DNA from: an uncultured Candidatus Saccharibacteria bacterium
Lineage (GTDB): Bacteria; Patescibacteriota; Minisyncoccia; Minisyncoccales; MHMH01
Assembly: GCA_964472225.1 (NCBI GenBank)
Contig: CAYYJV010000001.1
Location: 1 to 51,043 of the forward strand
Direction of reading: 5' to 3'
DNA: 51,043 bases
Both the position numbers and the translations under genes were made by a program. This document shows positions 166 to 40,990 of the stretch, one piece after another. Position 1 is the stretch's first letter, and the number at the start of each line of letters is the position of its first letter. Under the pieces are notes generated by a model. That model saw only the letters and a program-made list of their open reading frames with translations, was not told the DNA's origin and did not search any database.

Positions 166-225
166 CCGTGATCACAAGGTTTCCCCCGGCTCCCGTTTTG
201 GATAATTTTCAACGCGGCGGAAACC
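166..225 (-). repeat. Copy A of a GC-rich, inverted-repeat-bounded intergenic element (consensus orientation on the minus strand)
   Basis: The minus strand reads GGTTTCCGCCGCGTTGAAAATTATCCAAAACGGGAGCCGGGGGAAACC followed by TTGTGATCACGG. The termini GGTTTCC(G/C)CCG and CGGGGGAAACC pair as a long hairpin. The termini, the internal GAAATTATCCAAAAC block and the GTGATC tail match those at 40885-40990, and similar termini occur at 31143-31209 and 22721-22868. It lies just 3' of tsaD. Confidence 0.55.
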
Positions 226-232
226 TAAAATT

Positions 233-1231
233 TTATAAATTTTTAATTCTAAGATTAGCATCGGCTTTGATATCTTTTAATTTCTTTCTTTCTTTTCTGT
301 GAAAATAGCAGGTTACCGCTACCATGGCTGCGTTGTCTGTGCACAAGCTCTTAGGGGGGACAAAAATTTTGGTCTCTTTTCGGAATTGCTTCCTTAATTC
401 ATCGTTGGCGGCCACGCCTCCCCCAAGAAGCACTGATTTCACTTTGTAATCTTTAACGGCTTTCAAGGTTTTATAAATTAAAACATCAATAATTGCCTGT
501 TGAGCTTCAGCTGCCATAAATCTTTTGTTATATTTCCCTTCCCTCACTTTATATAATACCGCAGTTTTGAGCCCAGAGAAACTGAAATCGTAATTTTTCT
601 GCTTAATCATCGGTCTCGGCAAAGAAATTTCGAATTTCGAATTTCGAATTTTAAATTTAGCCGCTTGAGCTGCGATCGCTGGTCCCCCGGGATAACCCAG
701 ACCTAAAATCCTAGCCACTTTATCAAAACATTCGCCAGCCGCATCATCCTTCGTTTCACCAACCAATTTATATTGACCAATTTTCTTCATCAAGATTAAC
801 TGCGTATGTCCACCGCTGACCACTAAAGCCACCGCCGGAAACTGAATCGCAGTTGAACTGCGATTAATGAGATTCGCAAGTATGTGGGCCTCGATGTGAT
901 TTACAGGAATTAACGGTTTTTTATATCTTTTGGCCAAATCTTTGGCAAAATTTATTCCTTGCCACAAACAAGGTTCCAAACCGGGACCCACGGTCACCCC
1001 AATAAGATTAATGTCAGAAAACTTGTATCCCCTCATGGCCTTTCTTAAAACTTGAGGCAGATTCTTCTGGTGCTCCCTTTTGGCCAGAAAAGGATAAACT
1101 CCTCCGTATTTTTTGTGGAGTTTTACTTGGGAAGATATAATATTGGAGATTATCTTGAATCCCGACCTTCCCGCCTCCAAAAGAGATATGGCCGTATCAT
1201 CGCAGGAAGTGTCTATGCCTAGAATAATCAT
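233..1231 (-). CDS. tsaD: tRNA N6-adenosine threonylcarbamoyltransferase TsaD (Kae1/Gcp family)
   Basis: 332 aa. The N-terminus ILGIDTSCDDTAISLL, plus VNHIEAHI, GGPAI and DFSFSGLKTAV, are typical of TsaD. It overlaps tsaC by 4 nt. Confidence 0.9.
   Translation of the reverse strand: MIILGIDTSCDDTAISLLEAGRSGFKIISNIISSQVKLHKKYGGVYPFLAKREHQKNLPQVLRKAMRGYKFSDINLIGVTVGPGLEPCLWQGINFAKDLAKRYKKPLIPVNHIEAHILANLINRSSTAIQFPAVALVVSGGHTQLILMKKIGQYKLVGETKDDAAGECFDKVARILGLGYPGGPAIAAQAAKFKIRNSKFEISLPRPMIKQKNYDFSFSGLKTAVLYKVREGKYNKRFMAAEAQQAIIDVLIYKTLKAVKDYKVKSVLLGGGVAANDELRKQFRKETKIFVPPKSLCTDNAAMVAVTCYFHRKERKKLKDIKADANLRIKNL
624..658. repeat. Heptanucleotide array inside tsaD (3 perfect CGAATTT units plus degenerate flanking units)
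   Basis: The plus strand reads GAAATTT CGAATTT CGAATTT CGAATTT TAAATTT. It is translated in frame on the minus strand as KFKIRNSKFEIS, in the loop preceding the conserved LPRPM block. Confidence 0.7.
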
Positions 1232-9226: not shown

Positions 9227-11710
9227 TTAAACTACGAAATTAATGAGTTTTCCTGGCACAAATATCACCTTCTTGAGTGGTTTGTTGGCTATCCATTTTT
9301 TAACCTTTTCTCGCCCCAATGTCAATTCCTCTGCCTGCTTTTGAGAAATATCAACAAATACCTCAATTTTATCTCTAACCCTGCCGTTAACCTGAATAAT
9401 CAATTGGGTTTTTTCTTCTTTTACCAATTTCGGATTATATCGAGGCCATTGCTGATTATGAATGCTTTCTCGTTCTCCCATGTTATGCCACAATTCCTCG
9501 CTTATGTGAGGGGCAAACGGCGCCAAGAGTTTAATTATCAATTTCCAATTTTCACCGTGTGGATCGGTGGAACTTTTCAATGATTGAGGTTGTTTGGATG
9601 CTTCATTTATTAATATCATCAGGGCGGAAATGGCTGTGTTAAACCTCATGCCCTCAATATCTTCTGTCACCTTTTTAATAGTTTTATGCAATAGCCTTTC
9701 TATTTTTTCATTTTTAATTTCGCTTTTTGATTTTTTATTTTTAATTTTTAATTTTCCAAATAGATCCCATACTCTATTAAGGAATCTATAAATTCCCACG
9801 ATCCCATTTGGGTTCCATGCCCCTCCTTGGTTGTATGGCCCCATAAAACAAAGGTACATCCTTACGGCGTCAGCGCCATACTTTTTCACCTGCTCATCGG
9901 GATCTATCACATTGCCCCTGGATTTTGACATTTTTTGGCCATCGGGACCCAAAATAATTCCCTGGTGTCGCAAGGCCAAAAACGGCTCTTTGAAACCCAA
10001 ATGGCCAAGCTTATTTAAAACCTTAGTAAAAAACCGGGAATACAAAAGATGCAAGACGGTGTGCTCGGCTCCTCCAACGTACATTCGCACTGGCAGCCAT
10101 TTTTCAATTTTGTTTTTGGCAGCGAATTTTTTATCGTTATGGGGATCGGCGTAACGAAGATAATACCAAGAAGAACAAACAAAGGTATCCATGGTATCTG
10201 TTTCCCTTTGGGCAGAACCCTTACACTTGGGACAAGTGGTTTCAACAAAACTTTTGGATTTGGCCAGAGGAGAATTCCCTTCGCCCGTAGGCTTGTAATC
10301 TTTGATTTTCGGCAGCAAAACCGGCAAATCTTTTTCCGGAACCCGCTGCCAACCGCATTTTTCACAAAAAACCATGGGGATGGGAGCCCCCCAATATCTC
10401 TGTCGTGAGATCAGCCAATCACGTAATCTATAATAAACTCTTTTCTTGGCTAACCCCTTTTTAGCTAGCCACTCCCCGATTCTTTCTCTGGCATCAACAG
10501 AAGGCATACCCGTAAACCGACCGGAATTAACCAACACCCCCTCTCCCTCATAAGCCCTATTAACGAAGTCATTCTTCGTTAATGGTTTGATAACGTCAAT
10601 AATTGGTAAATTGTATTTCTTGGCGAAATCAAAATCTCTTTGGTCGTGAGCGGGGACTGCCATAATGGCTCCTGTGCCGTAATACATTAAAACATAATCT
10701 GCCACGAAAATAGGGATTTCCCGGCCGTTCACCGGATTGACGGCTTTAACGCCCCTTAATTCTATCCCGGTTTTCTCTTTTATTTCGGAAATCCTCTCCT
10801 TTTCCGTTTTTTTCTTGGATGACGTGACATATTCCTGAACAAATTTTAAATTTTGGATTTTGAGCTTTGGGTTTTTCAAAATCGGATGTTCCGGAGCTAC
10901 CACTAAATAAGTACAACCGAACAAGGTATCCGCTCTCGTAGTGAAAACGGGGATTTTAAATTTTGCCGTGCGCTGTGCGGAAACGGCGGGTGAACAACGG
11001 GCGTTTTGAATTTTGAATTCTATTTGCCATCCTTCTGACCTTCCAATCCAGTTCCTCTGCATAATCTTCGTGGTTTCGGGCCAATCCAGGCCCTCCAAAT
11101 CTTTCAATAAATCCTCGGCAAAGTCAGAAATTTTAAAAAGCCACTGCTCGATTTCCTCTTGCACCACCTCCGAATCGCACCTTTCGCACAAACCATCAAT
11201 CACTTGTTCGTTGGCTAAAACCGTCTTACAGGAAGGACAAAAATTACAGGGCACCTTGGCTCGGTAGGCCAAACCCGCCTTGTGCAGCTGTAAAAACATC
11301 CACTGGGTCCATTTATAATATTCGGGCTCAGAAGTAACAATCTCCCTGGACCAGTCATAACAATTCCCAAGTGACTTCAATTGCTTTCTCATTCTCTCAA
11401 TGTTCTTTTTGGTCCAGTTTTTGGGATGAATCCCCCTCTTTAAAGCAGCATTTTCTGCCGGTAATCCAAAAGAATCAAAGCCAATCGGCGACATTACATT
11501 AAACCCCTGCATTCTTTTGAAGCGAGCGTAAACGTCAGCGGGGGCGAAATTATACCAATGTCCTATATGAAGGTCGCCCGAAGGATAAGGAAACATCACC
11601 AGATGGTAAAAATTCTCCCTGCCTTTGGTCTTATCGGGAGTTTTGTAAATTCCAGAATTCTCCCAAATTTTCTGCCATTTTTTTTCAATTCTTTGTGGAT
11701 TATACTTCAT
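9227..11710 (-). CDS. leuS: Leucyl-tRNA synthetase
   Basis: 827 aa. It has the HIGH-type motif (SGDLHIGH), the KMSKS motif, the CP1 editing-domain blocks (TTRADTLFGCTY, GTGAIMAVPAHDQRD) and the C-terminal anticodon-binding domain. Confidence 0.95.
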   Translation of the reverse strand: MKYNPQRIEKKWQKIWENSGIYKTPDKTKGRENFYHLVMFPYPSGDLHIGHWYNFAPADVYARFKRMQGFNVMSPIGFDSFGLPAENAALKRGIHPKNWTKKNIERMRKQLKSLGNCYDWSREIVTSEPEYYKWTQWMFLQLHKAGLAYRAKVPCNFCPSCKTVLANEQVIDGLCERCDSEVVQEEIEQWLFKISDFAEDLLKDLEGLDWPETTKIMQRNWIGRSEGWQIEFKIQNARCSPAVSAQRTAKFKIPVFTTRADTLFGCTYLVVAPEHPILKNPKLKIQNLKFVQEYVTSSKKKTEKERISEIKEKTGIELRGVKAVNPVNGREIPIFVADYVLMYYGTGAIMAVPAHDQRDFDFAKKYNLPIIDVIKPLTKNDFVNRAYEGEGVLVNSGRFTGMPSVDARERIGEWLAKKGLAKKRVYYRLRDWLISRQRYWGAPIPMVFCEKCGWQRVPEKDLPVLLPKIKDYKPTGEGNSPLAKSKSFVETTCPKCKGSAQRETDTMDTFVCSSWYYLRYADPHNDKKFAAKNKIEKWLPVRMYVGGAEHTVLHLLYSRFFTKVLNKLGHLGFKEPFLALRHQGIILGPDGQKMSKSRGNVIDPDEQVKKYGADAVRMYLCFMGPYNQGGAWNPNGIVGIYRFLNRVWDLFGKLKIKNKKSKSEIKNEKIERLLHKTIKKVTEDIEGMRFNTAISALMILINEASKQPQSLKSSTDPHGENWKLIIKLLAPFAPHISEELWHNMGERESIHNQQWPRYNPKLVKEEKTQLIIQVNGRVRDKIEVFVDISQKQAEELTLGREKVKKWIANKPLKKVIFVPGKLINFVV
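9702..9756. repeat. Degenerate heptanucleotide AT-rich array inside leuS
   Basis: The coding strand reads GAAAATT AAAAATT AAAAATA AAAAATC AAAAAGC GAAATTA AAAATGA. It is translated in frame as KLKIKNKKSKSEIKNEK. Confidence 0.55.
10952..11020 (-). repeat. In-frame insertion in leuS: a GC-rich core (10965-11003) flanked on both sides by heptamer modules
   Basis: The coding strand reads GAATTCAAAATTCAAAAC-GCCCGTTGTTCACCCGCCGTTTCCGCACAGCGCACGGC-AAAATTTAAAATC, which encodes EFKIQNARCSPAVSAQRTAKFKI. The core is roughly 80% identical, by my hand alignment, to intergenic 22741-22782. Confidence 0.7.
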
Positions 11711-12486: not shown

Positions 12487-12664
12487 AATTAGTGAACTCG
12501 GAATTAGTCACTAAGAAAAACGTTCCGCAAGACGAACGGGCATGGTTTCTGCCAGAGCGTCCGGCAGAAGAGCGAGCCCGAGGTTCGAGCAGCGCGAGCG
12601 CGCTGGGCGAGCGACTGCGGTTTTTCGTGCGACTGATTCTGAATCTTATCGCCGAGCGATTAAT
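12487..12664 (-). other. GC-rich structured intergenic element between glyA and folD (candidate cis-regulatory RNA or attenuator, class unassigned)
   Basis: This spacer is markedly GC-rich in an otherwise AT-rich, tightly packed genome. The minus-strand RNA contains the hairpins AGCGCG..CGCGCT and CTGCC..GGCAG, a direct repeat CAGTCGC x2, and a weak hairpin CGTTC..GAACG followed by TTTTTCTT just upstream of folD. Confidence 0.3.
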
Positions 12665-14535: not shown

Positions 14536-15303
14536 CTAAATTTTAAATAACTCTTTAGCATTTCGGGTGGTAATTTGAGCTATTTCTTTATAATCTAAAT
14601 CTTTAATTTTAGCAATTTTCTCTGCCACATATTTTACATAAGCTGGCTCATTCCGACCCTTTTGGGAAGGCGGAGTCAAATAGGGGCAATCGGTTTCAAT
14701 TAAAATTCTCTCTAGAGGGGTTTTTTTAATGACATCGTCCAAATCCATTTTAAATATTATCCCGTTAAACCCCAAATAAAGCCCTTTTTCTATATATTTC
14801 TCTGCCTGATTCCGATCGCCGGTGAAACAATGAATAACACCTCTTAATTTCGAATTTCGTGCTTTGAATTTCAAATTTACGATCTCTATGAGATCCTCGT
14901 GGGCCTTTCGACAATGAAATATGATCGGCAGGTTTAATTCTTTGGCCAAATTCATTTGTTCTATCAAAATTTTCTTTTGCCTTTCTTTAAATGAAATGTA
15001 CTCTTCTTTGTAGTCCAGGCCGATTTCCCCAATGGCTACCACCCTTCGACTATCGCTTAGGGCAAGCTTTTTATATTCGTCGTAATTAAAATCATCTTGA
15101 GCATGAATCGGATGCAGGCCGATGGCTGCATAAACTCCTTTTGGATATTCTTCAGCTATTCTTACCGCTCTTTTGCTGGTAGTTAATTGTGAGCCGACAT
15201 TTATCATCCAAATATCACCGTCTAAAGAACGCCGAATAACTCTGTCGGCGTCTTCTTTGTAGGCCGAGAAATTCAAATGGGCGTGAGTATCGATTAACAT
15301 CAA
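14536..15303 (-). CDS. tatD: TatD-family metal-dependent hydrolase
   Basis: 255 aa. IDTHAHL, EIGLDY, IFHCR and ETDCPYL are the TatD motifs. Confidence 0.9.
   Translation of the reverse strand: MMLIDTHAHLNFSAYKEDADRVIRRSLDGDIWMINVGSQLTTSKRAVRIAEEYPKGVYAAIGLHPIHAQDDFNYDEYKKLALSDSRRVVAIGEIGLDYKEEYISFKERQKKILIEQMNLAKELNLPIIFHCRKAHEDLIEIVNLKFKARNSKLRGVIHCFTGDRNQAEKYIEKGLYLGFNGIIFKMDLDDVIKKTPLERILIETDCPYLTPPSQKGRNEPAYVKYVAEKIAKIKDLDYKEIAQITTRNAKELFKI
14845..14879. repeat. Heptamer-type AT-rich module inside tatD
   Basis: The coding strand reads AAATTTGAAATTCAAAGCACGAAATTCGAAATT, which encodes NLKFKARNSKL. A short GCAC island sits between the heptamer units. Confidence 0.5.
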
Positions 15304-16718
15304 AGACGCGGAAATAATGGTTTGCTCTTTTTTGTTTTAATTTGTTCTAATATTTTTTCCGAAGTTCCGGGCAAAAACGGTTTTAACATTTCAGCAATAT
15401 GATTCAGGGCGAACAATAAATCACCAATAACCCTCTTGTCCTTGCTCTCCCACGGTCTTTTTTTCTCAATGTATTTGTCGCAAAAACCAATTAGCTCCCA
15501 AATCGTAGCCAGCGCTTCATTAAATCGAAGCTCACTTAGAGAACGATGGTATTCTTTCCAAGTTTTGTTTATTTCCGCTTTGAATTTGGCTGTGTGGGAA
15601 CAGTGGGTTTTTGAAAATTTATTGGAAATTAAAAATTGGAAATTAGAAATTTGCGCCATTTTTATTACTCTGGCAACCAAATTCCCGAGCCCTTTTGCCA
15701 AATCAGAATTATAGCGCCCCTCAAATTTTTCGCGCGTAAAGTCTCCGTCTTCCGTCGGCGGAATCTCCCGCAGAAGAAAATATCTCACCGGATCTGTCCC
15801 GTATTTCTCAACCAATTCAAAAGGATCAATAACATTCCCCAAGCTTTTTGACATTTTTTGACCGTTAACGGTTATGAATCCGTGAACAAATATAATTTTA
15901 GGTAAAGGCAATCCGAGAGATAAAAGCATGCCCGGCCAAATCAAGCAGTGAAACTTCTGAATGTCTTTACCTATACACTGAACATCTGCTGGCCAGCGCC
16001 CCGGAGCTCCGGAAAGATAATTGGTTAAAGCATCTGCCCAACAATAGATAGTATGCGCGTCGTCGTCGGGAACGGGAATCCCCCATTTTAAATCTTTCCG
16101 AGGTCTGGAAAAACTGATGTCTTCCAAACCATGCTTTACAAAGCTAAGCATTTCATTCTTGCGGCTTTCGGGGACGATTTTTATCTTATCCCTTTTAATA
16201 ATTCCTTCTATTTTGGAAGAATATTTAGAAAGACGAAAAAAATAATTTTCTTCTTCAACTAATTCTGGTTCTTCTTGGTGAATTCCGCATCGGCCGTTTT
16301 TCAAATCCTTTTTGGTAATAAACGCCTCGCAGCCGACACAATAGAGCCCTTTGTACTTTTTCTTGTAAATATCGCCGTTTTTCTTTAATGCCAGCCAAAC
16401 CTTTTCTACCGAAGGCCAATGTTTTTTTCGATCGCTTGTACGGATGAAATTATCGTTGGAAATGTTCAAAATTTTAGTCAGCTTTTTGAATTTTTTCGCG
16501 AGCAAATCAGTAAATTCTTTCGGACTTTTGCCCGCCGCTGCGGCGGCTTCTGCCACCTTTTTTCCATGCTCGTCCGTGCCCGTTAAAAAGAAAACATCCT
16601 CGCCCAAAAGCCGGTGATATCTGGCTATCACATCTGCTTGAATTACTTCTAAGGCGTACCCGATGTGCGGAGAAGCGTTAGTATAAGCTATGCTAGTGGT
16701 AACATAGAACTTCTTCAT
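15300..16718 (-). CDS. metG: Methionyl-tRNA synthetase (short form, no C-terminal tRNA-binding appendix)
   Basis: 472 aa. It has the HIGH-type motif (ASPHIGY), KMSKS, and a CxxC knuckle (CVGCEAF). Confidence 0.95.
   Translation of the reverse strand: MKKFYVTTSIAYTNASPHIGYALEVIQADVIARYHRLLGEDVFFLTGTDEHGKKVAEAAAAAGKSPKEFTDLLAKKFKKLTKILNISNDNFIRTSDRKKHWPSVEKVWLALKKNGDIYKKKYKGLYCVGCEAFITKKDLKNGRCGIHQEEPELVEEENYFFRLSKYSSKIEGIIKRDKIKIVPESRKNEMLSFVKHGLEDISFSRPRKDLKWGIPVPDDDAHTIYCWADALTNYLSGAPGRWPADVQCIGKDIQKFHCLIWPGMLLSLGLPLPKIIFVHGFITVNGQKMSKSLGNVIDPFELVEKYGTDPVRYFLLREIPPTEDGDFTREKFEGRYNSDLAKGLGNLVARVIKMAQISNFQFLISNKFSKTHCSHTAKFKAEINKTWKEYHRSLSELRFNEALATIWELIGFCDKYIEKKRPWESKDKRVIGDLLFALNHIAEMLKPFLPGTSEKILEQIKTKKSKPLFPRL
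15578..15652 (-). repeat. In-frame insertion in metG: a truncated GC core (15588-15608) plus a heptamer array (15609-15652)
   Basis: The coding strand reads ...CAAATTTCTAATTTCCAATTTTTAATTTCCAATAAATTTTCAAAAA-CCCACTGTTCCCACACAGCC-AAATTCAAAG, which encodes ISNFQFLISNKFSKTHCSHTAKFK. The core matches 22754-22774 at 20 of 21 positions by hand alignment. Confidence 0.65.
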
Positions 16719-21027: not shown

Positions 21028-22689
21028 CTATTCAATTACTCCCTCAAAAGCTGTAACCGTATCATCGTCGGGTAAAGTAGTATCAATGGGGGCGGCCGTT
21101 CCCTGAACCGTATTTTCTGTAAATTGGTCTTCTCCGGAGATAAGGGCCTCGCCAATTAAAACAGGAGTGGTTCCAACTTGAGAAGAAGAGGGGGAAAGGG
21201 AAACCTGAAAAGAAACATTGGGAGCTCCTTCTAAAATTCCTTTGCCGGCATGCAAGGTTTCCATCTTCCAAATTACTTCCCGCGAAACCGAATCAAAAGT
21301 CAATCTGGCTCCTTCCGGGAAAATTTTGCCAGTAAGTTCTACATTCTTACCCAAAGCCGCTTTGACCTTAACGTTTTTAACGTCGTTGTAATAATTTTTA
21401 GCTTGCCAAGTAATGGTATAGGTGGTTAAATTGCCCACTTTGGGAGGCAGGGGACCCGTGTTGCCGAAAATTTCATCTCGGTAGTATCCCTTCTGGATGA
21501 TTTCCAATTTGGAATTGACTTTAGTGACAAATTCTTCCCTGGCTTGGCTTAAATAAACTTTGTTGCGCAAAACCGGATTTTTGTCTTTTTCCGAAGACAT
21601 CTGCCAGTCATCTTTCAATTCAATCCAAAACTCCACCTTTCCCTCCTCTTGAGCGTCCAAAAATTGAAGCTTGGGCACCCGCCGCCAGTCAAAGATTATT
21701 GAGTTGTCTCCCGCCTCAAACTCCCCTAAAGGAGCTTTGAGCGATTGAAAGTCAAAAGGTTCTCCCTCCAGTTTGGATACTAAAAATAAATTGGTGAAGG
21801 GCTCCTGTCCAATATTTTTAAAATAAATTTCGTAGTGTAAAGTGTCGCCCGGGGTGGCCGTATACTGGGGATTGTTGTTAATTTCCTGGGTGATATATAA
21901 GGAGGGGGTCGCTATTTGAACGGCCCTAACCGCTTCTTTCAAAAAAACAAAGTCCCCATTCTGCCAAGAACCCAATTGGGCTTTGAAATTTTTCTGCTCG
22001 CCCACCTTACCAATAATATTGCCAGTAATTTCAATCCTGCCACCCTCGGCTTTGTTTAAAAGCCCAATTTCCCAGTCTGTTTTCTCCAGGGGTTGAGGGC
22101 GAGCGGATTTAAATTCAAAACCAGATGGATACTCTAATTTTATTCCCAAATTGGCAAGGGGGTAGTTAACATTGGAAAAATAATTCAGTCTAAAAATGAT
22201 CTCCTTGCCAGATTCTATTTTTGAAGGAAGGTCTAATTCCAGCGTTAGGGGAACAGATTTTATTTGAGTGGCATGAGAAGTTTCAGATTCATATCTGGCT
22301 TTTAAGTTTTTGGGGCGATATGACAACCAGGCCTGGGCCTTCTTTACCTCTCCTTCTTTCCCAAATAATCTGGTTTTAAAGTGGAAGGTCTTTTCTTCTC
22401 CCGGGTAAATGTCGTCCAGCACCAATTCCTGCCTCAAGGATGCCCCTTCTTCAGTAATCGAATACTCGGGGTATTCGAAAACTAAACGAGGGTCTTCCAA
22501 TTTAATATTGCCGTTATTCTTGTATTTCACCGTATATTCTATTTCTTGGGCCAATTCTGCTTCTTCTGGGCCCAAAATCTCCAATTTCAAAACTTCTTTA
22601 GAATAAATGTTTTTCTGGTAATACCAAAAACCCACGAGGCCCACGATTGCCGTCGCTATTATAATGAAAAGTATAATTTTATTTCGCAT
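21028..22689 (-). CDS. Membrane-anchored secreted/surface protein with repeated beta-sandwich (DUF11/CARDB-like) modules
   Basis: 553 aa. It has a single N-terminal hydrophobic helix (ILFIIIATAIVGLVGFWYY). Recurrent blocks such as EIEYTVKYKNNGN and GDTLHYEIYFKNIGQ follow. I see no enzymatic motifs. Confidence 0.55.
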   Translation of the reverse strand: MRNKIILFIIIATAIVGLVGFWYYQKNIYSKEVLKLEILGPEEAELAQEIEYTVKYKNNGNIKLEDPRLVFEYPEYSITEEGASLRQELVLDDIYPGEEKTFHFKTRLFGKEGEVKKAQAWLSYRPKNLKARYESETSHATQIKSVPLTLELDLPSKIESGKEIIFRLNYFSNVNYPLANLGIKLEYPSGFEFKSARPQPLEKTDWEIGLLNKAEGGRIEITGNIIGKVGEQKNFKAQLGSWQNGDFVFLKEAVRAVQIATPSLYITQEINNNPQYTATPGDTLHYEIYFKNIGQEPFTNLFLVSKLEGEPFDFQSLKAPLGEFEAGDNSIIFDWRRVPKLQFLDAQEEGKVEFWIELKDDWQMSSEKDKNPVLRNKVYLSQAREEFVTKVNSKLEIIQKGYYRDEIFGNTGPLPPKVGNLTTYTITWQAKNYYNDVKNVKVKAALGKNVELTGKIFPEGARLTFDSVSREVIWKMETLHAGKGILEGAPNVSFQVSLSPSSSQVGTTPVLIGEALISGEDQFTENTVQGTAAPIDTTLPDDDTVTAFEGVIE

Positions 22690-22720
22690 AAGTTATTATG
22701 AATTTTGTTTTACAAAATTG

Positions 22721-22868
22721 GGTCTCCCCCGTTTAGGAAGGCCCGCTGTTCACCCACTGTTCGCACACAGCACACGGCAGCGAAGTGTTATCCGCCACGG
22801 GCGGATTCCCTTGGGGATTCCGGGCAACTCCCGAGAGATTTCTAAAAGAAGGGGGTCGGGGGAAATCC
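22721..22868 (+). repeat. Copy B of the inverted-repeat-bounded GC-rich element, carrying nested modules including the leuS/metG-homologous core (22741-22782)
   Basis: It runs from GGTCTCCCCCG to GGGGGTCGGGGGAAATCC, and the termini pair. Internally it carries the hairpin ATCCGCC-ACG-GGCGGAT and the module TCCGGGCAACTCCCGAGA. The 3' arm (22845-22868) lies inside the recO coding region. Confidence 0.6.
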
Positions 22869-23498
22869 TCTAATTACATCTTTATTATACCATTCAGAAG
22901 CATCTTTTAATAATTCTAAATGAATGGGTTCGAATTTTAATCTCGACAGGGTCTGCCAGTCCTTTTTCAAGATTAACTTTAAAATCTTGGCCAAATCATT
23001 ATCGATTTTCTTGCCGCAAAGGGAATCTCTCTGAAGTTCCGGCGAATACCCAAGAATGGAAGCCAAGCTCCAGAAAAAATAGTAATAAATAATTTTTAAT
23101 TTTAAATTTTTAATTTCATAATCATTTAATTTGTGGAAAACATCCTTGATCAGCTGCCAAATCTGTTCGTCTTTTTCTTCTTGAGGGGTTAAATTATCCA
23201 GAGTTTCGGCGATTTGATAAGCTACTTCTAATCTTTCTAAATCACTTCTTATGTTCTTAAAACTATTAACCAAAATCGCATCCGTCAAAGTTTTATGAGT
23301 TTTTCCCTGGATGAATTCAATCTCTGAAAGATAAAAAAGGCCGGCCCCTCCTCTCAATTTTGACTTGATTTTCCTAATGGCCCTGCCCAGAATCTCCAGT
23401 TTGCCGAAATTCTCGGTGTAAATCGTCAAAAGCCGGTTTGCCTCTCCCAAATCCTTCTTTTTCAAGATTAATCCTTGAGTTCTGTAATGGATAGCCAT
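22842..23498 (-). CDS. recO: DNA repair protein RecO
   Basis: 218 aa. The N-terminal OB-fold block GLILKKKDLGEANRLLTIYTENFGKLEILGRAIRK is typical of RecO. The last residues, GFPPTPFF, are encoded by the repeat arm. Confidence 0.85.
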   Translation of the reverse strand: MAIHYRTQGLILKKKDLGEANRLLTIYTENFGKLEILGRAIRKIKSKLRGGAGLFYLSEIEFIQGKTHKTLTDAILVNSFKNIRSDLERLEVAYQIAETLDNLTPQEEKDEQIWQLIKDVFHKLNDYEIKNLKLKIIYYYFFWSLASILGYSPELQRDSLCGKKIDNDLAKILKLILKKDWQTLSRLKFEPIHLELLKDASEWYNKDVIRGFPPTPFF

Positions 23499-26400
23499 AA
23501 GTTCTGCTGGTCAACTTTTATTTCCCCTTCCACTAGAAAAACTTTCTTCAATTTTCTTTTCAAAACGAAATCTTCGGCCCGGGTTTCTGTTAAAATGTTT
23601 CTTTTGTGCCTTTCCAACACCTTGTTCAATTCCGGGTCGCCGAAATATTGAACCAGAATTTTATCCTTAGGCTTCAAACCGGCTTTTTTCCGTAACGCCT
23701 GGATCTGACGAATAACCTCCCGAACTTGGCCTTCTTCCTTTAAGGCGGGAGTAATTTTGGTGTCTAATTTAAATGTTTTACCCAAAGTAATTTTCTTAAC
23801 GTTGACCTCCTCTTTAATTAATTCTGCTAATTCCTTATCTATCTTTTCTTTAATCCGCAATTCGGCCAACGGCTGGCGTACCTTGATTCCGGCTTTTGAT
23901 CTTTCTGCCAGGGCTAAAGCCACTATTTCTCTCACTTTTTCCATTTTCTGATTCAATCTCTTATCAATCAATCTTTTGTTGGTTTTCGGCCAATTCTCCA
24001 AATGCACACTCCGCGAAGAACGGTTCTCCGTCACACTGCGATAGATTTCTTCGCTAAGAAATGGAATAAAAGGGGCGGCTAATTTAGACAAAGTTTGCAA
24101 AACCAAAGCCAGGGTGCCGGCAGCTTTTGAAAAGCGCTTGCGCGACCTGCGAATATACCAAAGGGAAAGGTCATTAATAACAAAATTTTCGATCGCCCGG
24201 GCGGCTCCTGTTACGTCGTATTTATCAAGCTTGTCGGTCGTTTCTTGAATAAGCTCATGTAGCCTCGAAATAATCCATCTATTTAAAATATGATTGCAAT
24301 ACCTTTTTCCCGATTGGTAAAAATGTGTTACATAGGTTTGGTAAAATTGATAAGAGTTCCAGAAGGTCAAAATAAATTTTTTCAGGGCTTGCTCCACATC
24401 TTTCTCAGAGAAAAGCTTGACATCGCCCGGCTGATTGACCGTGTAGAAATACCAACGGGCGGCGTCGGTTCCGTACTTTTCAATAATATACCAAGGGTCT
24501 ACTACGTTACCCTTGGACTTCGACATTTTTTCTCCTTTTTCATCCAGAACATGACCCAGAGAAATCACATTCTTATAAGGAGGGCCAAAACCCAAAAGAG
24601 TGGAGATAGCCAAAAGAGTATAAAACCAACCTCGAGTTTGATCCACTGCCTCGGAAATATAATCAGCCGGAAACAATTCCGGAGGAATTAATTTTTGATT
24701 TTTGATTTTTGATTTTTGATTTTGAGCGAAGGGCCAATGGCCCTGAGCGAATGGCATGGCTCCGGAATCAAACCAAACGTCGATTAATTCCGGCGTTCTT
24801 TCCATTATATTTTGGCATTTGGGGCAATGAAATTTCACTTCATCAATGTAAGGGCGGTGAAAATCTATTTGTCCCTCTTCGTTTAAAGGAACATTTTTAT
24901 ACTCAATCTTGCGCCACTCTCCTGTTTTGATGTCAGTATTTTTAATGTTCATATTCAGTAGTTCTTGATCGCTCAGCATTTTCACGGCTCCCTCCAGCAG
25001 CCAAAGCGGATCACCGTGGCTGACAATTAAAATGGTTTTATTCTGATGTTTTTTGTCAATTTCGGCAAGCCACCTGACCATTCTCCTCCGACACTCTCCC
25101 CAATTTTCTCCGCCGGCAGAATTTTTACTATAAAATCTTTCCAGGTTTTGGGGGAAAGCCCGGTAAAATTCTTCCTTTTTCTTCCCGTGATAAATCCCCA
25201 AATTGACATCTCGTAATCTTTTATCAAAGATTATTGGCGCCCCTAAATATTTAGCGACGATTTCCGCTGTCTGACGAGTTCTGGCCATATCCGAGGAATA
25301 AATTAAATCTATCCCTTTGCCCTTAAGCTCTCTGGCAGCTTTTTTTATTTGATTCTGGCCGACTTTGGTTAACGGAACGGGTTTACTTTCGGGGAAAGGA
25401 TAAACCCATTCCCTTTTCTTTGTCTGATAAACTGTCTGGCCGTGGCGCAGGATATAATATTTATTAGTGGAAAACTTTTGCTTGATGATATCTTTTTTAG
25501 AGCCGATGATTTCTTGGTGTCCGCATTTCTGGCACTGCCAAATGGGCAAAGGAGTTCCCCAATATCTTTCCCTGGAAAGAGCCCAATCTTTAAGTTCTTT
25601 CAGCCATTCACCAAACCTACCCTCTTTTAAGTGGGGAGGCACCCAATTGATCTTTTGATTGTTTTTGATCAGCTGGCTTTTGGCTTTTTGCATATTAATA
25701 AACCAACTTTCTTTGGCATAATAAAGTAAGGGGGAGGTGCATCTCCAGCAAAAGGGATAATCGTGCTCATATAATTCTTCCTTGAATAAAAGGCCCCTCT
25801 TTTTAAGATTGTCGATAATCAAGGGGTCGGCATCTTTTACCCAGAGGCCTCGCCAGTTTTTTACTTCTTTTTTGAATTTCCCCTCTTCGTTTACATTCAA
25901 TATAACAGGCAGGTTGTTTTTCTTTCCCGCCTCCATGTCTTCCTCACCAAAAGCCGGAGCTATGTGCACCAAGCCCGTTCCTTCTTCTAGGGAAACAAAA
26001 TCCCCAGCAATGACCAGAGCGTAGGGGGGGCCGACCTCTACACGATATGGGGGTTCATATTGTAAGCCCAACAAATCTTTTCCTTTAATTTCCTTCATTA
26101 TCTCGCCCTCAATCCCCAAAGATTCCATCCTCTCTTTGGCCAGAATCAAATATTCTTCTCCGACTTTCATTTTAACGTAAGTAAAATTGGGGTTGACTGC
26201 CACAGCCACGTTCCCCGGCAAAGTCCAGGGAGTGGTCGTCCAAACCAGCAAATAAGAATTTTTGAAATTTGGATTTTGGATTTTGAACTTCACAGAGATA
26301 GCGGGTTCTTTGATTCTTTTATAGCCGAGGGCGACTTCGTGAGATGAAAGACTGGTGCCACATCGAGGACAATAAGGCACCACTTTGTAATCTTTGTACA

Positions 26401-26896
26401 AAAGGCCTTTTTCGTAAATTTGCTTGATGATCCAAAAAAGACTTTCCATGTAATTCGGATCATAGGTAATGTAGGGATTTTCCATGTCCAGCCAAAAACC
26501 AATTCTTTCTGTCAGCTTTTCCCAATCTTGTTTGTAAGTCCAGACTGATTGCTTACATTTTTGGTTAAATTTAGCAATACCATATTTTTCAATGTCTTTT
26601 TTAGATTTTAGACCCAGTTTCTTTTCAATTTCTAACTCCACTGGCAATCCATGGGTATCCCAGCCGGCTTTCCTTAAAACCCGAAAACCCCGCATGGTTT
26701 TGTACCTACAGATTATGTCCTTATAAACCCGACTTAAAACATGGTGAATTCCGGGCTTAGCATTAGCTGTAGGCGGTCCCTCGTAAAACACAAAGTCACG
26801 AGCTTTCGCTCGCTGCTTAATGCTTTTCTCAAAAATCTTTTTTTCCTTCCAAAACTTTAAAATCTCCTGCTCTTTTTTTGAAAAATTGAGCTCCAT
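23468..26896 (-). CDS. ileS: Isoleucyl-tRNA synthetase (type 2-like) carrying an internal histidine-phosphatase domain
   Basis: 1142 aa, uninterrupted. It has the PPTANAKPGIHH (HIGH region) block, the CP1 editing blocks (WTTTPWTLPGN, GTGLVHIAPAFGEED), KMSKS and the anticodon-binding domain. Residues ~478-672 form a His_Phos_1-like domain (see findings). Confidence 0.95.
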   Translation of the reverse strand: MELNFSKKEQEILKFWKEKKIFEKSIKQRAKARDFVFYEGPPTANAKPGIHHVLSRVYKDIICRYKTMRGFRVLRKAGWDTHGLPVELEIEKKLGLKSKKDIEKYGIAKFNQKCKQSVWTYKQDWEKLTERIGFWLDMENPYITYDPNYMESLFWIIKQIYEKGLLYKDYKVVPYCPRCGTSLSSHEVALGYKRIKEPAISVKFKIQNPNFKNSYLLVWTTTPWTLPGNVAVAVNPNFTYVKMKVGEEYLILAKERMESLGIEGEIMKEIKGKDLLGLQYEPPYRVEVGPPYALVIAGDFVSLEEGTGLVHIAPAFGEEDMEAGKKNNLPVILNVNEEGKFKKEVKNWRGLWVKDADPLIIDNLKKRGLLFKEELYEHDYPFCWRCTSPLLYYAKESWFINMQKAKSQLIKNNQKINWVPPHLKEGRFGEWLKELKDWALSRERYWGTPLPIWQCQKCGHQEIIGSKKDIIKQKFSTNKYYILRHGQTVYQTKKREWVYPFPESKPVPLTKVGQNQIKKAARELKGKGIDLIYSSDMARTRQTAEIVAKYLGAPIIFDKRLRDVNLGIYHGKKKEEFYRAFPQNLERFYSKNSAGGENWGECRRRMVRWLAEIDKKHQNKTILIVSHGDPLWLLEGAVKMLSDQELLNMNIKNTDIKTGEWRKIEYKNVPLNEEGQIDFHRPYIDEVKFHCPKCQNIMERTPELIDVWFDSGAMPFAQGHWPFAQNQKSKIKNQKLIPPELFPADYISEAVDQTRGWFYTLLAISTLLGFGPPYKNVISLGHVLDEKGEKMSKSKGNVVDPWYIIEKYGTDAARWYFYTVNQPGDVKLFSEKDVEQALKKFILTFWNSYQFYQTYVTHFYQSGKRYCNHILNRWIISRLHELIQETTDKLDKYDVTGAARAIENFVINDLSLWYIRRSRKRFSKAAGTLALVLQTLSKLAAPFIPFLSEEIYRSVTENRSSRSVHLENWPKTNKRLIDKRLNQKMEKVREIVALALAERSKAGIKVRQPLAELRIKEKIDKELAELIKEEVNVKKITLGKTFKLDTKITPALKEEGQVREVIRQIQALRKKAGLKPKDKILVQYFGDPELNKVLERHKRNILTETRAEDFVLKRKLKKVFLVEGEIKVDQQNLWLSITELKD
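24691..24724. repeat. Heptanucleotide array inside ileS (4 perfect ATTTTTG units plus one 6-nt unit)
   Basis: The plus strand reads ATTTTTG x4 then ATTTTG. The coding strand translates it as QNQKSKIKNQK, just downstream of the WFDSGAMPF block. Confidence 0.75.
26257..26289. repeat. Heptamer-type array inside ileS
   Basis: The coding strand reads TTCAAAATCCAAAATCCAAATTTCAAAAATTC, which encodes KFKIQNPNFKNS. It lies immediately before the conserved LLVWTTTPWTLP block. Confidence 0.6.
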
Positions 26897-29661: not shown

Positions 29662-30111
29662 ATGAGGGTTTTGGCGGAAAACAAAAAGGCATACTTCAAC
29701 TATGAAATCCTGGAGAAATTCGAAGCCGGCTTGGTTTTACAAGGCCATGAAGTAAAATCTATACAATCAGGAAGAATAACCTTGGCCGGCTCCTATGTTG
29801 TTTTAAAAAACAAAGGGGCGTATCTGCTCAATGCCACAATTCCTCCCTACCAACCTAAGAACGTTCCGACAGACTACAATCCTACCAGGCTGAGAAATCT
29901 CCTTTTGAAAAAATCGGAAATCAAGTATTTAATCGGAAAGTCGCGGCAGAAGGGCTTGACTTTGGTGCCTTTAAGGGTGTATACTAAGAAAGGTAAAATT
30001 AAGTTAGAATTCGCCTTGGCCAAAGGAAGAAAAAAAGCCAGCAAAAAAGAGTTATTAAAAAAACGGGCGATAGACAGAGAAATTAAGCGGGAGTTAAAAT
30101 CCAGAGGATAA
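29662..30111 (+). CDS. smpB: SsrA-binding protein
   Basis: 149 aa. NKKAYFNYEI, GHEVKSI, the TRLRNLLLKKSEI block and LALAKGRKK are present. It is immediately followed by the tmRNA. Confidence 0.95.
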   Translation: MRVLAENKKAYFNYEILEKFEAGLVLQGHEVKSIQSGRITLAGSYVVLKNKGAYLLNATIPPYQPKNVPTDYNPTRLRNLLLKKSEIKYLIGKSRQKGLTLVPLRVYTKKGKIKLEFALAKGRKKASKKELLKKRAIDREIKRELKSRG

Positions 30112-30437
30112 GGGGGTGACAGGATTCGACAGTTATTCTTTGCCAAAATCTGCAAGCAAAAGCTCTTCGAACAATAAGTGCCAACTTGTTCAAACAACCT
30201 GCTTACGCTTTGGCGTAACGCCATCTGAATAGTTGATTCTCGATAGACTATCTCAGGTGTTATATAAATCGAGATATCCGGTTTCTTTGCCTCGAAGATT
30301 CCGGGAATCAAAGAGGCTAGAAATGCTGAAATTTTGTCTATTTTATATTCAGTATTTCGAACGGCGAAATAGACTAAGCTTGTAGAGTGATTTTGGTAAA
30401 ATTTCTGGATCCGAGTTCAATTCTCGGCACCTCCACC
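30112..30437 (+). ncRNA. ssrA: tmRNA (ssrA), one-piece; predicted tag (A)NLFKQPAYALA
   Basis: The 5' end GGGGGTGACAGGATTCGACAG and the 3' end GGATCCGAGTTCAATTCTCGGCACCTCCACC form an acceptor stem with a G3-U pair and a T-arm (CCGAG-TTCAATT-CTCGG). The resume codon GCC is at 30180, the ORF GCC AAC TTG TTC AAA CAA CCT GCT TAC GCT TTG GCG runs to 30215, and the TAA stop is at 30216-30218. Confidence 0.9.
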
Positions 30438-30441
30438 TACT

Positions 30442-31142: not shown

Positions 31143-31209
31143 CACGGTCACACGATTCCCCCCCTATTCACAACCTTCGGTTTTAAACAATTTCCGAGGC
31201 GGGGGAAAG
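31143..31209 (-). repeat. Copy C of the inverted-repeat-bounded GC-rich element (consensus on the minus strand), in the rpmI-rplT spacer
   Basis: The minus strand reads GCTTTCCCCCGCCTCGGAAATTGTTTAAAACCGAAGGTTGTGAATAGGGGGGAATC followed by GTGTGACCGTG. It aligns with copies A and D at the 5' terminus, at the GGAAATTNTNNAAAAC block, at the G-rich 3' terminus and at the GTGA(T)C tail. Confidence 0.55.
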
Positions 31210-31232
31210 CGAAAATTTATTTCATAAATTTT

Positions 31233-31580
31233 ATGGTGCGAGTCAAAAGAGGAAAACAAGCCAGAAAAAAGAAAAAACGGCTTTTCCAGCAGGTCAAAGG
31301 TTTTCGTTGGGGAAGAAAAACAAGATTAAAACTAGCCAAAGACGCTCTGCGCCACGCTTTGGCCCATGCTTACCGGGGAAGAAAAGAAAAAAAGAGAACG
31401 ATGAGAAGGCTCTGGCAAATTCAGATTTCGGCTGCTTGTCGTCAGGAGGGTATTTCTTACAGCAAGTTTATTAATGGTTTAAAGAAAAATAAAATCGATC
31501 TTGACCGAAAAATATTATCTCAGCTCGCTCAAACTCGTCCAGATATTTTTAAGAAAATAGTAGAAAAAATAAAAAAATAA
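31233..31580 (+). CDS. rplT: 50S ribosomal protein L20
   Basis: 115 aa. MVRVKRGKQARKKKKRLFQQVKGFRWGR...AYRGRKEKKR is canonical L20. Confidence 0.95.
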   Translation: MVRVKRGKQARKKKKRLFQQVKGFRWGRKTRLKLAKDALRHALAHAYRGRKEKKRTMRRLWQIQISAACRQEGISYSKFINGLKKNKIDLDRKILSQLAQTRPDIFKKIVEKIKK

Positions 31581-40884: not shown

Positions 40885-40990
40885 GGTTTCCCCCGTGTCG
40901 GAAATTATCCAAAACCTCGGGAATCGCCCGAAGGCCTCAAAGATTCGTCTACGGCGAATAAAAGAGGGGCTGGGGAAAACCGCGTGATCG
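40885..40990 (+). repeat. Copy D of the inverted-repeat-bounded GC-rich element, in the divergent Memo/rtcA spacer
   Basis: The sequence is GGTTTCCCCCGTGTCGGAAATTATCCAAAACC-[CTCGGGAATCGCCCGAAGG...CGTCTACGGCG...]-AGAGGGGCTGGGGAAAACC followed by GCGTGATCG. It has the same termini and tail as copy A, with extra internal hairpins. Confidence 0.55.

What the first reader, a model, noticed from the sequence alone, without database searches (positions are those of the whole stretch)
10952..11020. GC-rich DNA module shared with an intergenic repeat is inserted in frame into leucyl-tRNA synthetase
On the leuS coding strand the sequence is GAATTCAAAATTCAAAAC-GCCCGTTGTTCACCCGCCGTTTCCGCACAGCGCACGGC-AAAATTTAAAATC. 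It encodes EFKIQNARCSPAVSAQRTAKFKI, between the conserved GRSEGWQIEF and VFTTRADT blocks at the entry to the CP1 editing domain. From memory, E. coli LeuRS has only about nine residues there. The ~40-nt GC core aligns with intergenic 22741-22782 (GCCCGCTGTTCACCCACTGTTCGCACACAGCACACGGCAG) at roughly 80% identity by my hand alignment, and with a shorter copy in metG. On both sides the core is flanked by AT-rich heptamer modules (TTCAAAA TTCAAAA / CAAAATT TAAAATC) that look like a duplicated target or element termini. This resembles the in-frame insertion of small repeats into essential genes known from Rickettsia palindromic elements, but the sequence family here is different.
Basis: partly seen in the sequence, partly recalled or inferred. 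Interest (0 to 1): 0.75.

Follow-up and report, generated by a model that had tools for sequence, protein, structure and literature searches.

The report
18-nt repeat inserted into leuS
An essential enzyme gene of an ultra-small (Patescibacteria) bacterium carries an in-frame double copy of an 18-base repeat that is scattered through genes and spacers of related genomes, so it is inserted DNA and not an old protein feature.

Summary
Window 10964-11005 matches intergenic 22738-22779 at 34/42 bases. No shuffle out of 3000 reached more than 30.

The core is not one 40-nt module. It is a diverged double copy of an 18-nt unit, CCCACTGTTC-N-CACACAG, with one unit nested inside another after CTGTTCN. 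It adds exactly 36 nt (12 residues). The insertion point is the tip of the first beta-hairpin of the LeuRS CP1 editing domain, a low-confidence loop in the AlphaFold model.

Relatives show insertion polymorphism at the DNA level:
- leuS loop: empty, single forward, single reverse, or double.
- A second leuS site: empty, single, or double, in different reading frames.
- metG: filled or empty.

The unit occurs about 140 times in the Patescibacteria DNA I fetched. It is found solo, in tandem (period 18) and nested, in all six reading frames, in spacers, and in loops of an unclassified structured RNA-like element.

The flanking AT-rich heptamers are not element ends or a target duplication. They are a pre-existing 7-nt tandem array that encodes the hairpin. 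Removing 18 nt restores the array phase.

The unit is not palindromic, has no terminal inverted repeats, and no transposase lies nearby. How it is copied remains unresolved. The closest analogue is the Rickettsia palindromic elements, but this is not a member of that family.

The parts
9227..11710 (-). leuS (leucyl-tRNA synthetase, 827 aa), the host gene
   Evidence: ORF and translation. 8000 homologues with Pfam tRNA-synt_1, tRNA-synt_1_2 and Anticodon_1. AlphaFold model mean pLDDT 88.
10966..11001 (-). The 36-nt insertion proper: two nested, diverged units. On the coding strand it reads CCCGTTGTTCA | CCCGCCGTTTCCGCACAG | CGCACGG. It adds 12 residues net. The inserted codons 10964-11002 (residues 237-249, ARCSPAVSAQRTA) replace a single Ser codon.
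   Evidence: Codon alignment with empty site L056: TCA replaced by 39 nt. 34/42 match to 22738-22779. The same nested layout is seen in L002, L079, L153, L076, L064 and L065. A 12-residue gap against 1H3N and 4AQ7-type chains. pLDDT 53 for residues 241-250.
10991..11001 (-). Outer unit, left half (CCCGTTGTTCA; consensus CCCACTGTTCN)
   Evidence: Read, compared with the consensus.
10973..10990 (-). Inner 18-nt unit (CCCGCCGTTTCCGCACAG; 5 mismatches to the consensus)
10966..10972 (-). Outer unit, right half (CGCACGG; consensus CACACAG). It shares the CGG variant with the intergenic copy.
11003..11020 (-). Upstream part of the pre-existing heptamer array (GAATTCAAAATTCAAAAC), encoding strand 1 of the hairpin (EFKIQN)
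   Evidence: L056 has GAATTCAAAATTCAAAATTCAAAATTCAAAATTCC at the empty site.
10952..10965 (-). Downstream part of the heptamer array (CAAAATTTAAAATC), encoding strand 2 of the hairpin (KFKI)
   Evidence: The array stays in phase once 36 nt are removed.
22742..22777 (+). Intergenic double (nested) unit: CCCGCTGTTCA | CCCACTGTTCGCACACAG | CACACGG
   Evidence: nhmmer E = 4e-5 for the inner unit.
22720..22868 (+). GC-rich host element ('X2' type) between recO and a DUF11-family gene. It is closed by GGTCTCCCCCG ... CGGGGGAAATC and carries the double unit after GTTTAGGAAGG.
   Evidence: It is absent at the orthologous junction in L056, where the spacer is 20 nt. Related copies lie at other loci: L001 9075-9174, L079, L084, L115. 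No Rfam match.
15590..15607 (-). Single 18-nt unit in metG (15300-16718, minus strand), encoding part of KTHCSHTAKF
   Evidence: Identical in L002 and absent in L001, which is 18 nt shorter.

Best explanation
Window 10966-11001 is a decayed double copy of an 18-nt interspersed repeat unit. The unit has a left half CCCACTGTTCN and a right half CACACAG, and here one unit is nested between the halves of another. It was copied at the DNA level into a 7-nt tandem array (AATTCAA)n. That array encodes the tip of the first beta-hairpin of the LeuRS CP1 editing domain.

Each unit adds exactly 18 nt, and the unit is free of stop codons in five (N = A or T) or all six (N = C or G) reading frames. Insertions therefore keep the reading frame and are translated. 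Here the result is a 12-residue extension of a surface loop, which is probably neutral.

The family is spread through Nealsonbacteria-like Patescibacteria. It occurs in coding loops, in spacers and inside other repeated elements. It occurs solo, in tandem and nested in itself.

Shown: the repeat family, its exact 18-nt increment, the absence of a target duplication, presence/absence at orthologous sites, both orientations, use of all reading frames, and selection against in-frame stops.

Inferred: how it spreads. I think the most likely route (about 50%) is a sequence-specific copy-in, without target duplication, by an unidentified activity encoded elsewhere. This activity would prefer short A/T-rich tandem arrays and the unit's own centre. 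The main alternative (about 35%) is template switching or short-tract gene conversion between array-flanked copies, with no dedicated enzyme.
For: Significance of the leuS-to-intergenic match: 34/42, against a shuffle maximum of 30.

Orthologous sites:
- leuS loop: W double forward, L001 single forward (PKTHCSHTA), L002 single reverse (LGVNSGH), L056 and L057 empty.
- leuS second site: W empty, L001 single in the THCSHTA frame, L002 double in the PTVHQLFSHSTQ frame.
- metG: W and L002 filled, L001 and L057 empty.

Only 4 of 120 LeuRS homologues carry unit-derived peptides.

Genome scan: about 32 matches in about 12 Patescibacteria MAGs, 3 to 7 per genome, plus scattered single hits in unrelated taxa at the rate expected by chance.

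The 18-nt period appears in tandem arrays (L005, L089, L162, L114). L^nR^n nesting with n = 2 or 3 is seen.

Removing exactly 18 nt restores the phase of the flanking 7-8-nt arrays in 18.3 of 21 testable copies. Periodic flanks occur at 35/135 copies against 2.7% of random sites.

Copies in open reading frames use all six frames. When the host frame is called from the flanks alone, the only frame-and-variant combination that creates a stop has 0/7 A-variants, against 22/42 in the other frames.

The loop location is supported by a 12-residue gap against solved LeuRS structures and by the lowest-confidence block of an otherwise confident model.
Against: No mobilising gene was found. The window encodes no transposase, recombinase or reverse transcriptase, and no long element bounded by the two halves was seen in about 0.9 Mb.

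An 18-nt, non-palindromic unit is shorter than anything known transposases recognise.

The base 5' of the unit is G or A where the array expects T. Some copies also share longer A-rich flanks (metG in W and both leuS copies in L001). Both points fit a homology-guided conversion tract better than clean transposition.

The W leuS copy is too diverged to be found by the single-unit profile. Its assignment rests on the 34/42 match to the intergenic double unit and on the shared nested layout.

The three closest genomes all have some form of the unit at the leuS loop, so part of the pattern could be inheritance followed by rearrangement.

Translation is inferred, not observed.
Confidence: 0.8

Rival explanations
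1. The unit spreads without any dedicated enzyme. Replication or repair in slippage-prone short tandem arrays switches template to another array-flanked copy, copies the unit, and returns. Any short sequence flanked by arrays on both sides then propagates itself.
For: There is no target duplication, no inverted repeats, no hairpin and no linked gene. The base 5' of the unit is replaced, giving a 19-for-1 substitution. Longer A-rich flanks are shared between metG (W, L002) and the two leuS copies of L001. There is a strong preference for short-period arrays. Several unrelated GC-rich modules occupy the same LeuRS loops in other relatives, as expected if the process is generic.
Against: The ends are exact in arrays of unrelated sequence (AAGATAC, AATTTTC, GAATATTC and others), where microhomology is only 1-3 nt. 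Nesting is always at the same internal position and keeps equal numbers of left and right halves in at least 9 of 11 cases. The 18-mer is nearly identical across MAGs assigned to different candidate phyla or classes.
Confidence: 0.3
2. The 18-mer is a functional cis-element kept by selection: a binding site for a DNA-binding protein, or a target site for a small RNA. Coding loops are simply where such sites can be accommodated, as with DNA uptake sequences in Neisseria and Haemophilus.
For: The 18-mer is strongly conserved apart from its free central base across divergent hosts. X1-type structured elements carry the exact reverse complement in an exposed hairpin loop. Copies occur in all reading frames and in variable protein segments. 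A ParB-like gene is in the window.
Against: Density is low: 3 copies in 51 kb here, and at least 5 exact matches in a 640-kb complete genome. From my own knowledge, uptake sequences occur at about 1 per kb. Positions are not conserved between close relatives. Tandem and nested multiples and decayed copies such as the leuS one look like junk, not sites. The identity of copies is partly forced by the search pattern. No canonical parS is present. The X1 copy in the genome closest to W (L048) lacks the unit.
Confidence: 0.1
3. The extra LeuRS residues are an ancestral or adaptive protein-level feature of the CP1 domain, and the DNA similarity to other loci is secondary or due to chance.
For: The loop is a hot spot for length variation in this clade. 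The three closest LeuRS sequences all have an insert there.
Against: 116 of 120 homologues lack it. The three inserts differ in length, orientation and peptide. The same DNA encodes different peptides in different frames at the second leuS site. The similarity is about 10 sd above the shuffle mean. The AlphaFold model gives the segment its lowest confidence.
Confidence: 0.02
4. Assembly or sequencing artefact, such as adapter or chimeric sequence inserted into contigs.
For: A short identical oligomer appears in many metagenome assemblies.
Against: It is confined to one bacterial lineage. It preserves reading frames. It is diverged in older copies. It is identical, with its flanks, in independent assemblies from different sources (W, and L002 from NCBI). 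It is absent from the unrelated genomes beyond the chance rate.
Confidence: 0.01

Closest known systems
Rickettsia palindromic elements (RPEs)
   Same: Multi-copy selfish repeats inserted in frame into unrelated housekeeping genes, including metabolic and translation genes. They are translated as extra peptide segments placed where the fold tolerates them, and they also occur in non-coding DNA (PMC10969869, citing Ogata et al. 2000).
   Different: RPEs are about 150 bp, palindromic, and form about ten families in Rickettsia (PMC10969869). This unit is 18 nt and folds no better than shuffled sequence. It nests in itself and forms tandem arrays. It targets short tandem arrays. It occurs in Patescibacteria.
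Bacterial MITEs, REP/BIME, Correia/ERIC-type small mobile sequences
   Same: Short, non-autonomous, dispersed repeats with lineage-specific insertion sites. Some occur within genes. Some families are known to insert into other repeats.
   Different: Those elements have terminal inverted repeats or a hairpin, usually a target duplication, and lengths of about 35-500 bp. Here there are no inverted repeats, no hairpin and no duplication, and the unit is 18 nt.
DNA uptake sequences (Neisseria DUS, Haemophilus USS)
   Same: Short, conserved, non-palindromic oligomers found in spacers and, in several reading frames, in poorly conserved parts of proteins (my own knowledge).
   Different: Uptake sequences occur at roughly one per kb and are not nested or tandem. 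This unit is about 100-fold rarer, and its positions turn over between close relatives.
GC clusters of yeast mitochondrial DNA
   Same: Short GC-rich mobile modules in an AT-richer genome, with at least one in-frame insertion in a coding gene (var1) (my own knowledge).
   Different: GC clusters are 30-50 bp palindromes with a short target duplication. They are in a different domain of life. This comparison was not tested here.
Minisatellites / VNTRs and cyanobacterial STRR heptamer repeats
   Same: Tandem arrays with period 18 exist at some loci (L005, L089, L162, L114). The flanking 7-nt arrays resemble short tandemly repeated heptamers.
   Different: Slippage explains copy-number change at one locus. 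It does not explain the same 18-mer appearing in over a hundred unrelated loci with exact ends.

Membership tests
Rickettsia palindromic elements | Palindromic sequence able to form a stable hairpin, about 100-150 bp | tested here: not met
   The unit is 18 nt and the leuS copy is 36 nt. DNA folding energies are no better than shuffles (z = +0.37, +0.48, -0.39, +1.54).
Rickettsia palindromic elements | In-frame insertion into unrelated protein-coding genes, compatible with the fold | tested here: met
   leuS (two sites), metG, tsaD and many long ORFs. Located at a hairpin tip with pLDDT 53.
Rickettsia palindromic elements | Sequence homology to one of the described RPE families, with Rickettsia as host | tested here: not met
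   The host is Patescibacteria. An 18-mer cannot be homologous to 150-bp RPE consensus sequences. No direct alignment to RPE consensus sequences was run.
MITE | Terminal inverted repeats | tested here: not met
   Left half CCCACTGTTCN and right half CACACAG share only a 4-bp CTGT/ACAG complement.
MITE | Target-site duplication | tested here: not met
   The empty site (L056) and the filled site (W) have the same number of heptamers. The net gain is exactly 18 or 36 nt.
REP/BIME mobilised by RAYT | Extragenic imperfect palindrome with a conserved 5' tetranucleotide, and a RAYT gene in the genome | tested here: not met
   Not palindromic and often intragenic. Presence of a RAYT in the whole genome could not be tested; none is in the window.
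Diversity-generating retroelement (template/variable repeat pair) | Mismatches confined to adenines of the template repeat, with a reverse transcriptase nearby | tested here: not met
   Only 3 of 7 mismatches are at A in the intergenic copy (read). No reverse transcriptase is in the window. There are many copies, not a pair.
DNA uptake sequence | Very high genomic density (about 1 per kb) of an exact short motif | tested here: not met
   3 copies in 51 kb. At least 5 exact matches in the 639,534-bp genome CP179888.1.
Minisatellite / VNTR | Head-to-tail copies at one locus that vary in number | tested here: inconclusive
   Period-18 tandem arrays exist at some loci, but most copies are solo or nested, and they are dispersed.
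Known RNA families (Rfam 15), for the intergenic host element | Covariance-model match | tested here: not met
   No match at 22600-22950 with E up to 10 apart from two chance hits. None for X1 copies.

The most novel reading that the evidence does not exclude
The 18-mer is moved or used through RNA. X1-type small structured RNAs carry its exact reverse complement in an exposed hairpin loop. They could act as guides or templates that direct insertion of the unit. Alternatively, they could act as antisense regulators of every mRNA that has acquired a copy, leuS and metG included. Either way this would be a mobile, RNA-specified 18-nt module and the smallest mobile unit known.
Probability: 0.06. 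Interest if true: 0.9.

Novelty: new variant of a known kind. Interest (0 to 1): 0.62.

Why it matters
It shows that even the very small, streamlined genomes of Patescibacteria let a repeat colonise essential genes such as leuS and metG. The unit is far smaller than any described mobile repeat. It has none of the usual hallmarks (inverted repeats, hairpin, target duplication), which points to a copying mechanism that has not been described.

On the practical side, these inserts and the heptamer arrays around them create lineage-specific indels in marker proteins. They produce recurring 'hypothetical' peptides (THCSHTA, PTVHTQ, PLFTHS, AVCEQW). They could also serve as strain markers.

They also offer a natural experiment on how protein loops and RNA hairpin loops tolerate random 6- or 12-residue additions.

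Tried and rejected
- Rfam scans of the window, of the intergenic locus and of related loci found only tmRNA and tRNAs.
- RNase P-like, SRP-like and riboswitch readings of the intergenic element were dropped. There is no model match and the element is multi-copy.
- A retroelement template/variable pair was rejected on the mismatch pattern and the lack of a reverse transcriptase.
- parS: no canonical site in the window, and the unit is not palindromic.
- Target-site duplication was rejected by comparing empty and filled sites.
- A search for an autonomous element bounded by the two halves found none in about 0.9 Mb.
- The viral contig scan gave 2 hits that look like chance.
- My first two attempts at the phase test used thresholds that were too strict and left only one usable copy each. 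The third version worked.
- A scan for GC-rich islands in the window was uninformative, because ordinary coding sequence at 41% GC gives many islands.
- Literature searches for Patescibacteria or CPR together with repeat, palindromic-element or in-frame terms found nothing relevant.
Full report
**Observation.** leuS occupies 9227-11710 on the minus strand (827 aa). The repeat tool independently paired 10964-11005 with 22738-22779: 42 nt, 81%. I tested this against chance. The best ungapped match of the 42-mer elsewhere in the window is 34/42. Across 3000 dinucleotide-preserving shuffles the best match had mean 23.4, sd 0.98 and maximum 30. For 120 native GC-rich 42-mers of the window the maximum was 28. 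The third copy lies in metG (15300-16718, minus strand) at 15588-15607. The window comes from a Nealsonbacteria-like member of the Patescibacteria, judging by the names attached to the closest LeuRS sequences and genomes.

**It is an insertion, and it is DNA, not protein.** In an alignment of 120 LeuRS homologues, the stretch from NWIG to TTRADT is 31 residues in most (for example QIEFKIQNSKFKIPVF). The window has 43. T. thermophilus (1H3N) and E. coli LeuRS both align with a 12-residue gap exactly at ARCSPAVSAQRT. I fetched the syntenic loci of four relatives and compared codons.

At the leuS loop:
- L056 has GAATTCAAAATTCAAAATTCAAAATTCAAAATTCC, a perfect (AATTCAA)x4 array, and no insert.
- L057 has (AGTTCAA)x4 and no insert.
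- L001 has CCCACTGTTCCCACACAG in forward orientation, encoding PKTHCSHTA.
- L002 has the reverse complement, GGTGTGAACAGTGGGC, encoding LGVNSGH.
- The window has a 36-nt forward form.

At a second leuS site near residue 660:
- The window is empty.
- L001 has one unit read as THCSHTA.
- L002 has a double unit read in another frame, PTVHQLFSHSTQ.

In metG, the window and L002 carry the unit (KTHCSHTAKF). L001 is 18 nt shorter, and L057 also lacks the unit.

The same DNA in two orientations and in different frames at the same site, with empty sites in relatives, rules out an ancestral peptide. Only P0001, P0002, P0003 and P0041 among the 120 homologues carry unit-derived peptides. P0041 has a whole 'class B' repeat with the unit in this same loop. 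Its peptide LIADQLSTVHMQQGAKRLV compares with LIAKQLPTVHTQQGAKRPV, translated from L033.

**The unit.** Exact-pattern scans found the sequence in about 12 Patescibacteria MAGs, with 3 to 7 matches per genome. This includes 5 in the complete 639,534-bp genome CP179888.1. About 20 single hits in unrelated taxa are what chance predicts for a 17-base pattern in this collection. Nearly all come from contigs of 29-45% GC. A profile built from the copies found further decayed copies only in the Patescibacteria loci and none in the unrelated ones.

The repeat period in tandem arrays is 18 nt (L005, L089, L162, L114). The unit is therefore CCCACTGTTC-N-CACACAG, with left half L = CCCACTGTTCN and right half R = CACACAG. 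Multi-unit copies are mostly nested, L L R R or L L L R R R, with the inner unit sitting after CTGTTCN. Examples are the window's intergenic copy, L002's second leuS site, L079, L153, L076, L064, L065, L156 and L115.

The leuS copy has this same layout: CCCGTTGTTCA | CCCGCCGTTTCCGCACAG | CGCACGG, at 10991-11001, 10973-10990 and 10966-10972. It is diverged, with 4 to 5 mismatches per unit, and the single-unit profile does not detect it. It shares the CCCG start and the CGG ending of the outer unit with the intergenic double copy at 22742-22777.

**Target and junctions.** The flanks are very often short-period tandem arrays that differ from locus to locus: AAGATAC, AATTTTC, GAATATTC, TACGAAT, AAAATCA, AAATTCC. 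At least one flank is periodic at 35/135 copies, against 2.7% of random sites in the same loci. For the 21 copies whose flanks are clearly periodic, deleting exactly 18 nt restores the array phase in 18.3 cases. Deleting 17, 19, 20 or 21 nt together accounts for 2.7. The filled leuS site has the same number of heptamers as the empty one. There is therefore no target duplication, and the AT-rich heptamers are the pre-existing array that encodes the two strands of the hairpin. One oddity remains: the base just 5' of the unit is G or A where the array expects T.

The unit also sits at fixed positions inside two other repeated elements:
- 'Class B' (TTAATTGCGAAGCAATT..AGGGAGCGAAGCGACCGGTT). L019 has adjacent copies with and without the unit, and they differ by 18 nt.
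- The first hairpin loop of a 130-190-nt structured element, which I call X1.

**The intergenic copy.** Window 22720-22868 is a GC-rich element closed by GGTCTCCCCCG...CGGGGGAAATC, with the double unit after GTTTAGGAAGG. It is absent from the orthologous recO/DUF11 junction of L056, where the spacer is 20 nt. Related copies lie at non-orthologous places, for example between glyA (SHMT) and folD in L001. There the 3' arm is followed by TT and the folD start codon.

A permuted form, X1, has these features: 5' and 3' ends that pair, a GNRA-type hairpin with GC/AU covariation, a stem GCGGU/GCCGC enclosing a hairpin of variable length, and usually a run of U at the end. Neither form matches any Rfam family. 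So both the unit and its intergenic host are repeats.

**Translation and structure.** An AlphaFold model built with 56 homologues has mean pLDDT 88. Residues 224-236 and 252-257 are the two strands of the hairpin. The insert (237-249) lies between them. Residues 241-250 have mean pLDDT 53, the lowest block in the protein.

Among 143 unique copies, 77 lie in stop-free spans of at least 600 nt, and all six frames are used. I then called the host frame from the flanks alone, which left 49 coding copies. The one combination that would create a stop is reverse frame 2 with N = A, giving TGA. It has 0 A-variants out of 7, against 22 of 42 in the other frames (hypergeometric probability about 0.01). 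This is indirect evidence that the units are read through by the ribosome.

**Mechanism.** The unit is not palindromic: its folding energies are within the range of shuffles. It has no inverted repeats and no duplication. The window encodes no transposase, recombinase or reverse transcriptase. No long element bounded by L and R was found in about 0.9 Mb.

Three observations favour a sequence-specific activity encoded elsewhere in the genome:
- exact ends in arrays of unrelated sequence;
- nesting at a fixed internal position with equal numbers of L and R;
- near identity of the 18-mer across MAGs given different candidate-phylum names.

Three observations favour template switching or short-tract conversion between array-flanked copies:
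- the replaced 5' base;
- longer A-rich flanks shared by some copies;
- the presence of several unrelated GC-rich modules in the same LeuRS loops of other relatives.

I lean slightly towards the first explanation but cannot decide between them with these data.

**Comparison with known systems.** The outcome matches Rickettsia palindromic elements: in-frame colonisation of unrelated housekeeping genes at structurally tolerant sites (PMC10969869). The anatomy does not match. RPEs are about 150-bp palindromes, and MITEs, REPs and similar elements have inverted repeats or hairpins and usually duplications. Uptake sequences are similarly short and also occur in coding loops, but they are about 100 times denser and are not nested. 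Literature searches found no description of such repeats in Patescibacteria.

**Verdict.** It is a new variant of a known kind, and its copying mechanism remains open.

Noticed in passing
window 23468-26896 (-): The IleRS-like class I synthetase (1142 aa) has a complete histidine phosphatase domain (His_Phos_1, residues 481-663, E = 3e-40) inserted in the catalytic core. The L056 orthologue is 965 aa with no such domain on record.
   Followed up: no
window 10952-11020; L056 and L057 leuS loop; also window 622-653, 9697-9749, 14843-14878, 15610-15660, 24687-24718, 26254-26285: Coding regions contain perfect or near-perfect 7-nt tandem arrays. The first beta-hairpin of the LeuRS CP1 domain is encoded by (AATTCAA)x4 in L056 and by (AGTTCAA)x4 in L057. 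Its two strands co-vary between orthologues (FKI/FKI, FSI/FSI, FQI/FQI), which suggests concerted evolution of a coding micro-array.
   Followed up: partly
L049 6039-6319 (-), L012, L030, L036, L045, L082, L084, L162, L170, L174: A 130-190-nt structured, multi-copy RNA-like element (X1). Its consensus runs GGGGUCGGGAAAAC-loop-GUUUUCCCGUGUAGGAAA ... AGAAACC-GNRA-GGUUUCU ... GAGCGGUGUUAGC-hairpin-GCGUGCCGCGAC-UUUU. It has three covarying pairs and no Rfam match. About half the copies carry the 18-nt unit, reversed, in the first hairpin loop.
   Followed up: partly
window 178-225 (-), 31179-31235 (-), 40885-40981 (+); L001 9075-9174; L002 20945-21030: Leader-like GC-rich elements that begin AAAATTTTAGGTTTCCCCCGTGT(A/C)GGAAA. 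In several cases they end CGGGGGAAACC followed by TT and a start codon (folD in L001). The likely ribosome-binding site would then be paired with the 5' end of the element. One copy directly precedes a tRNA gene (L041).
   Followed up: partly
window 12487-12664: The 178-nt GC-rich spacer between glyA (SHMT) and folD is conserved with L002. In L001 it is replaced by a different element that carries the 18-nt unit. It has no Rfam match at gathering thresholds.
   Followed up: no
LeuRS homologues P0005, P0008, P0009, P0015, P0026, P0027, P0082: Other short GC-rich peptide modules fill the same two LeuRS loops in other relatives: SRLRPSGFGGQ, TLDPEETPRR, STPTPKGVGAPTGSVGEF, GKRFSAQGGSASGGK. This suggests further repeat families of the same kind.
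   Followed up: no
window 44492-45505 (+): A ParB-like protein (ParB_N plus HTH_ParB) with no canonical parS site (TGTTNCACGTGAAACA, up to 3 mismatches) anywhere in the window.
   Followed up: partly
window 30112-30438 (+): tmRNA gene with tag peptide ANLFKQPAYALA, immediately after smpB (29662-30111) and before infC.
   Followed up: no
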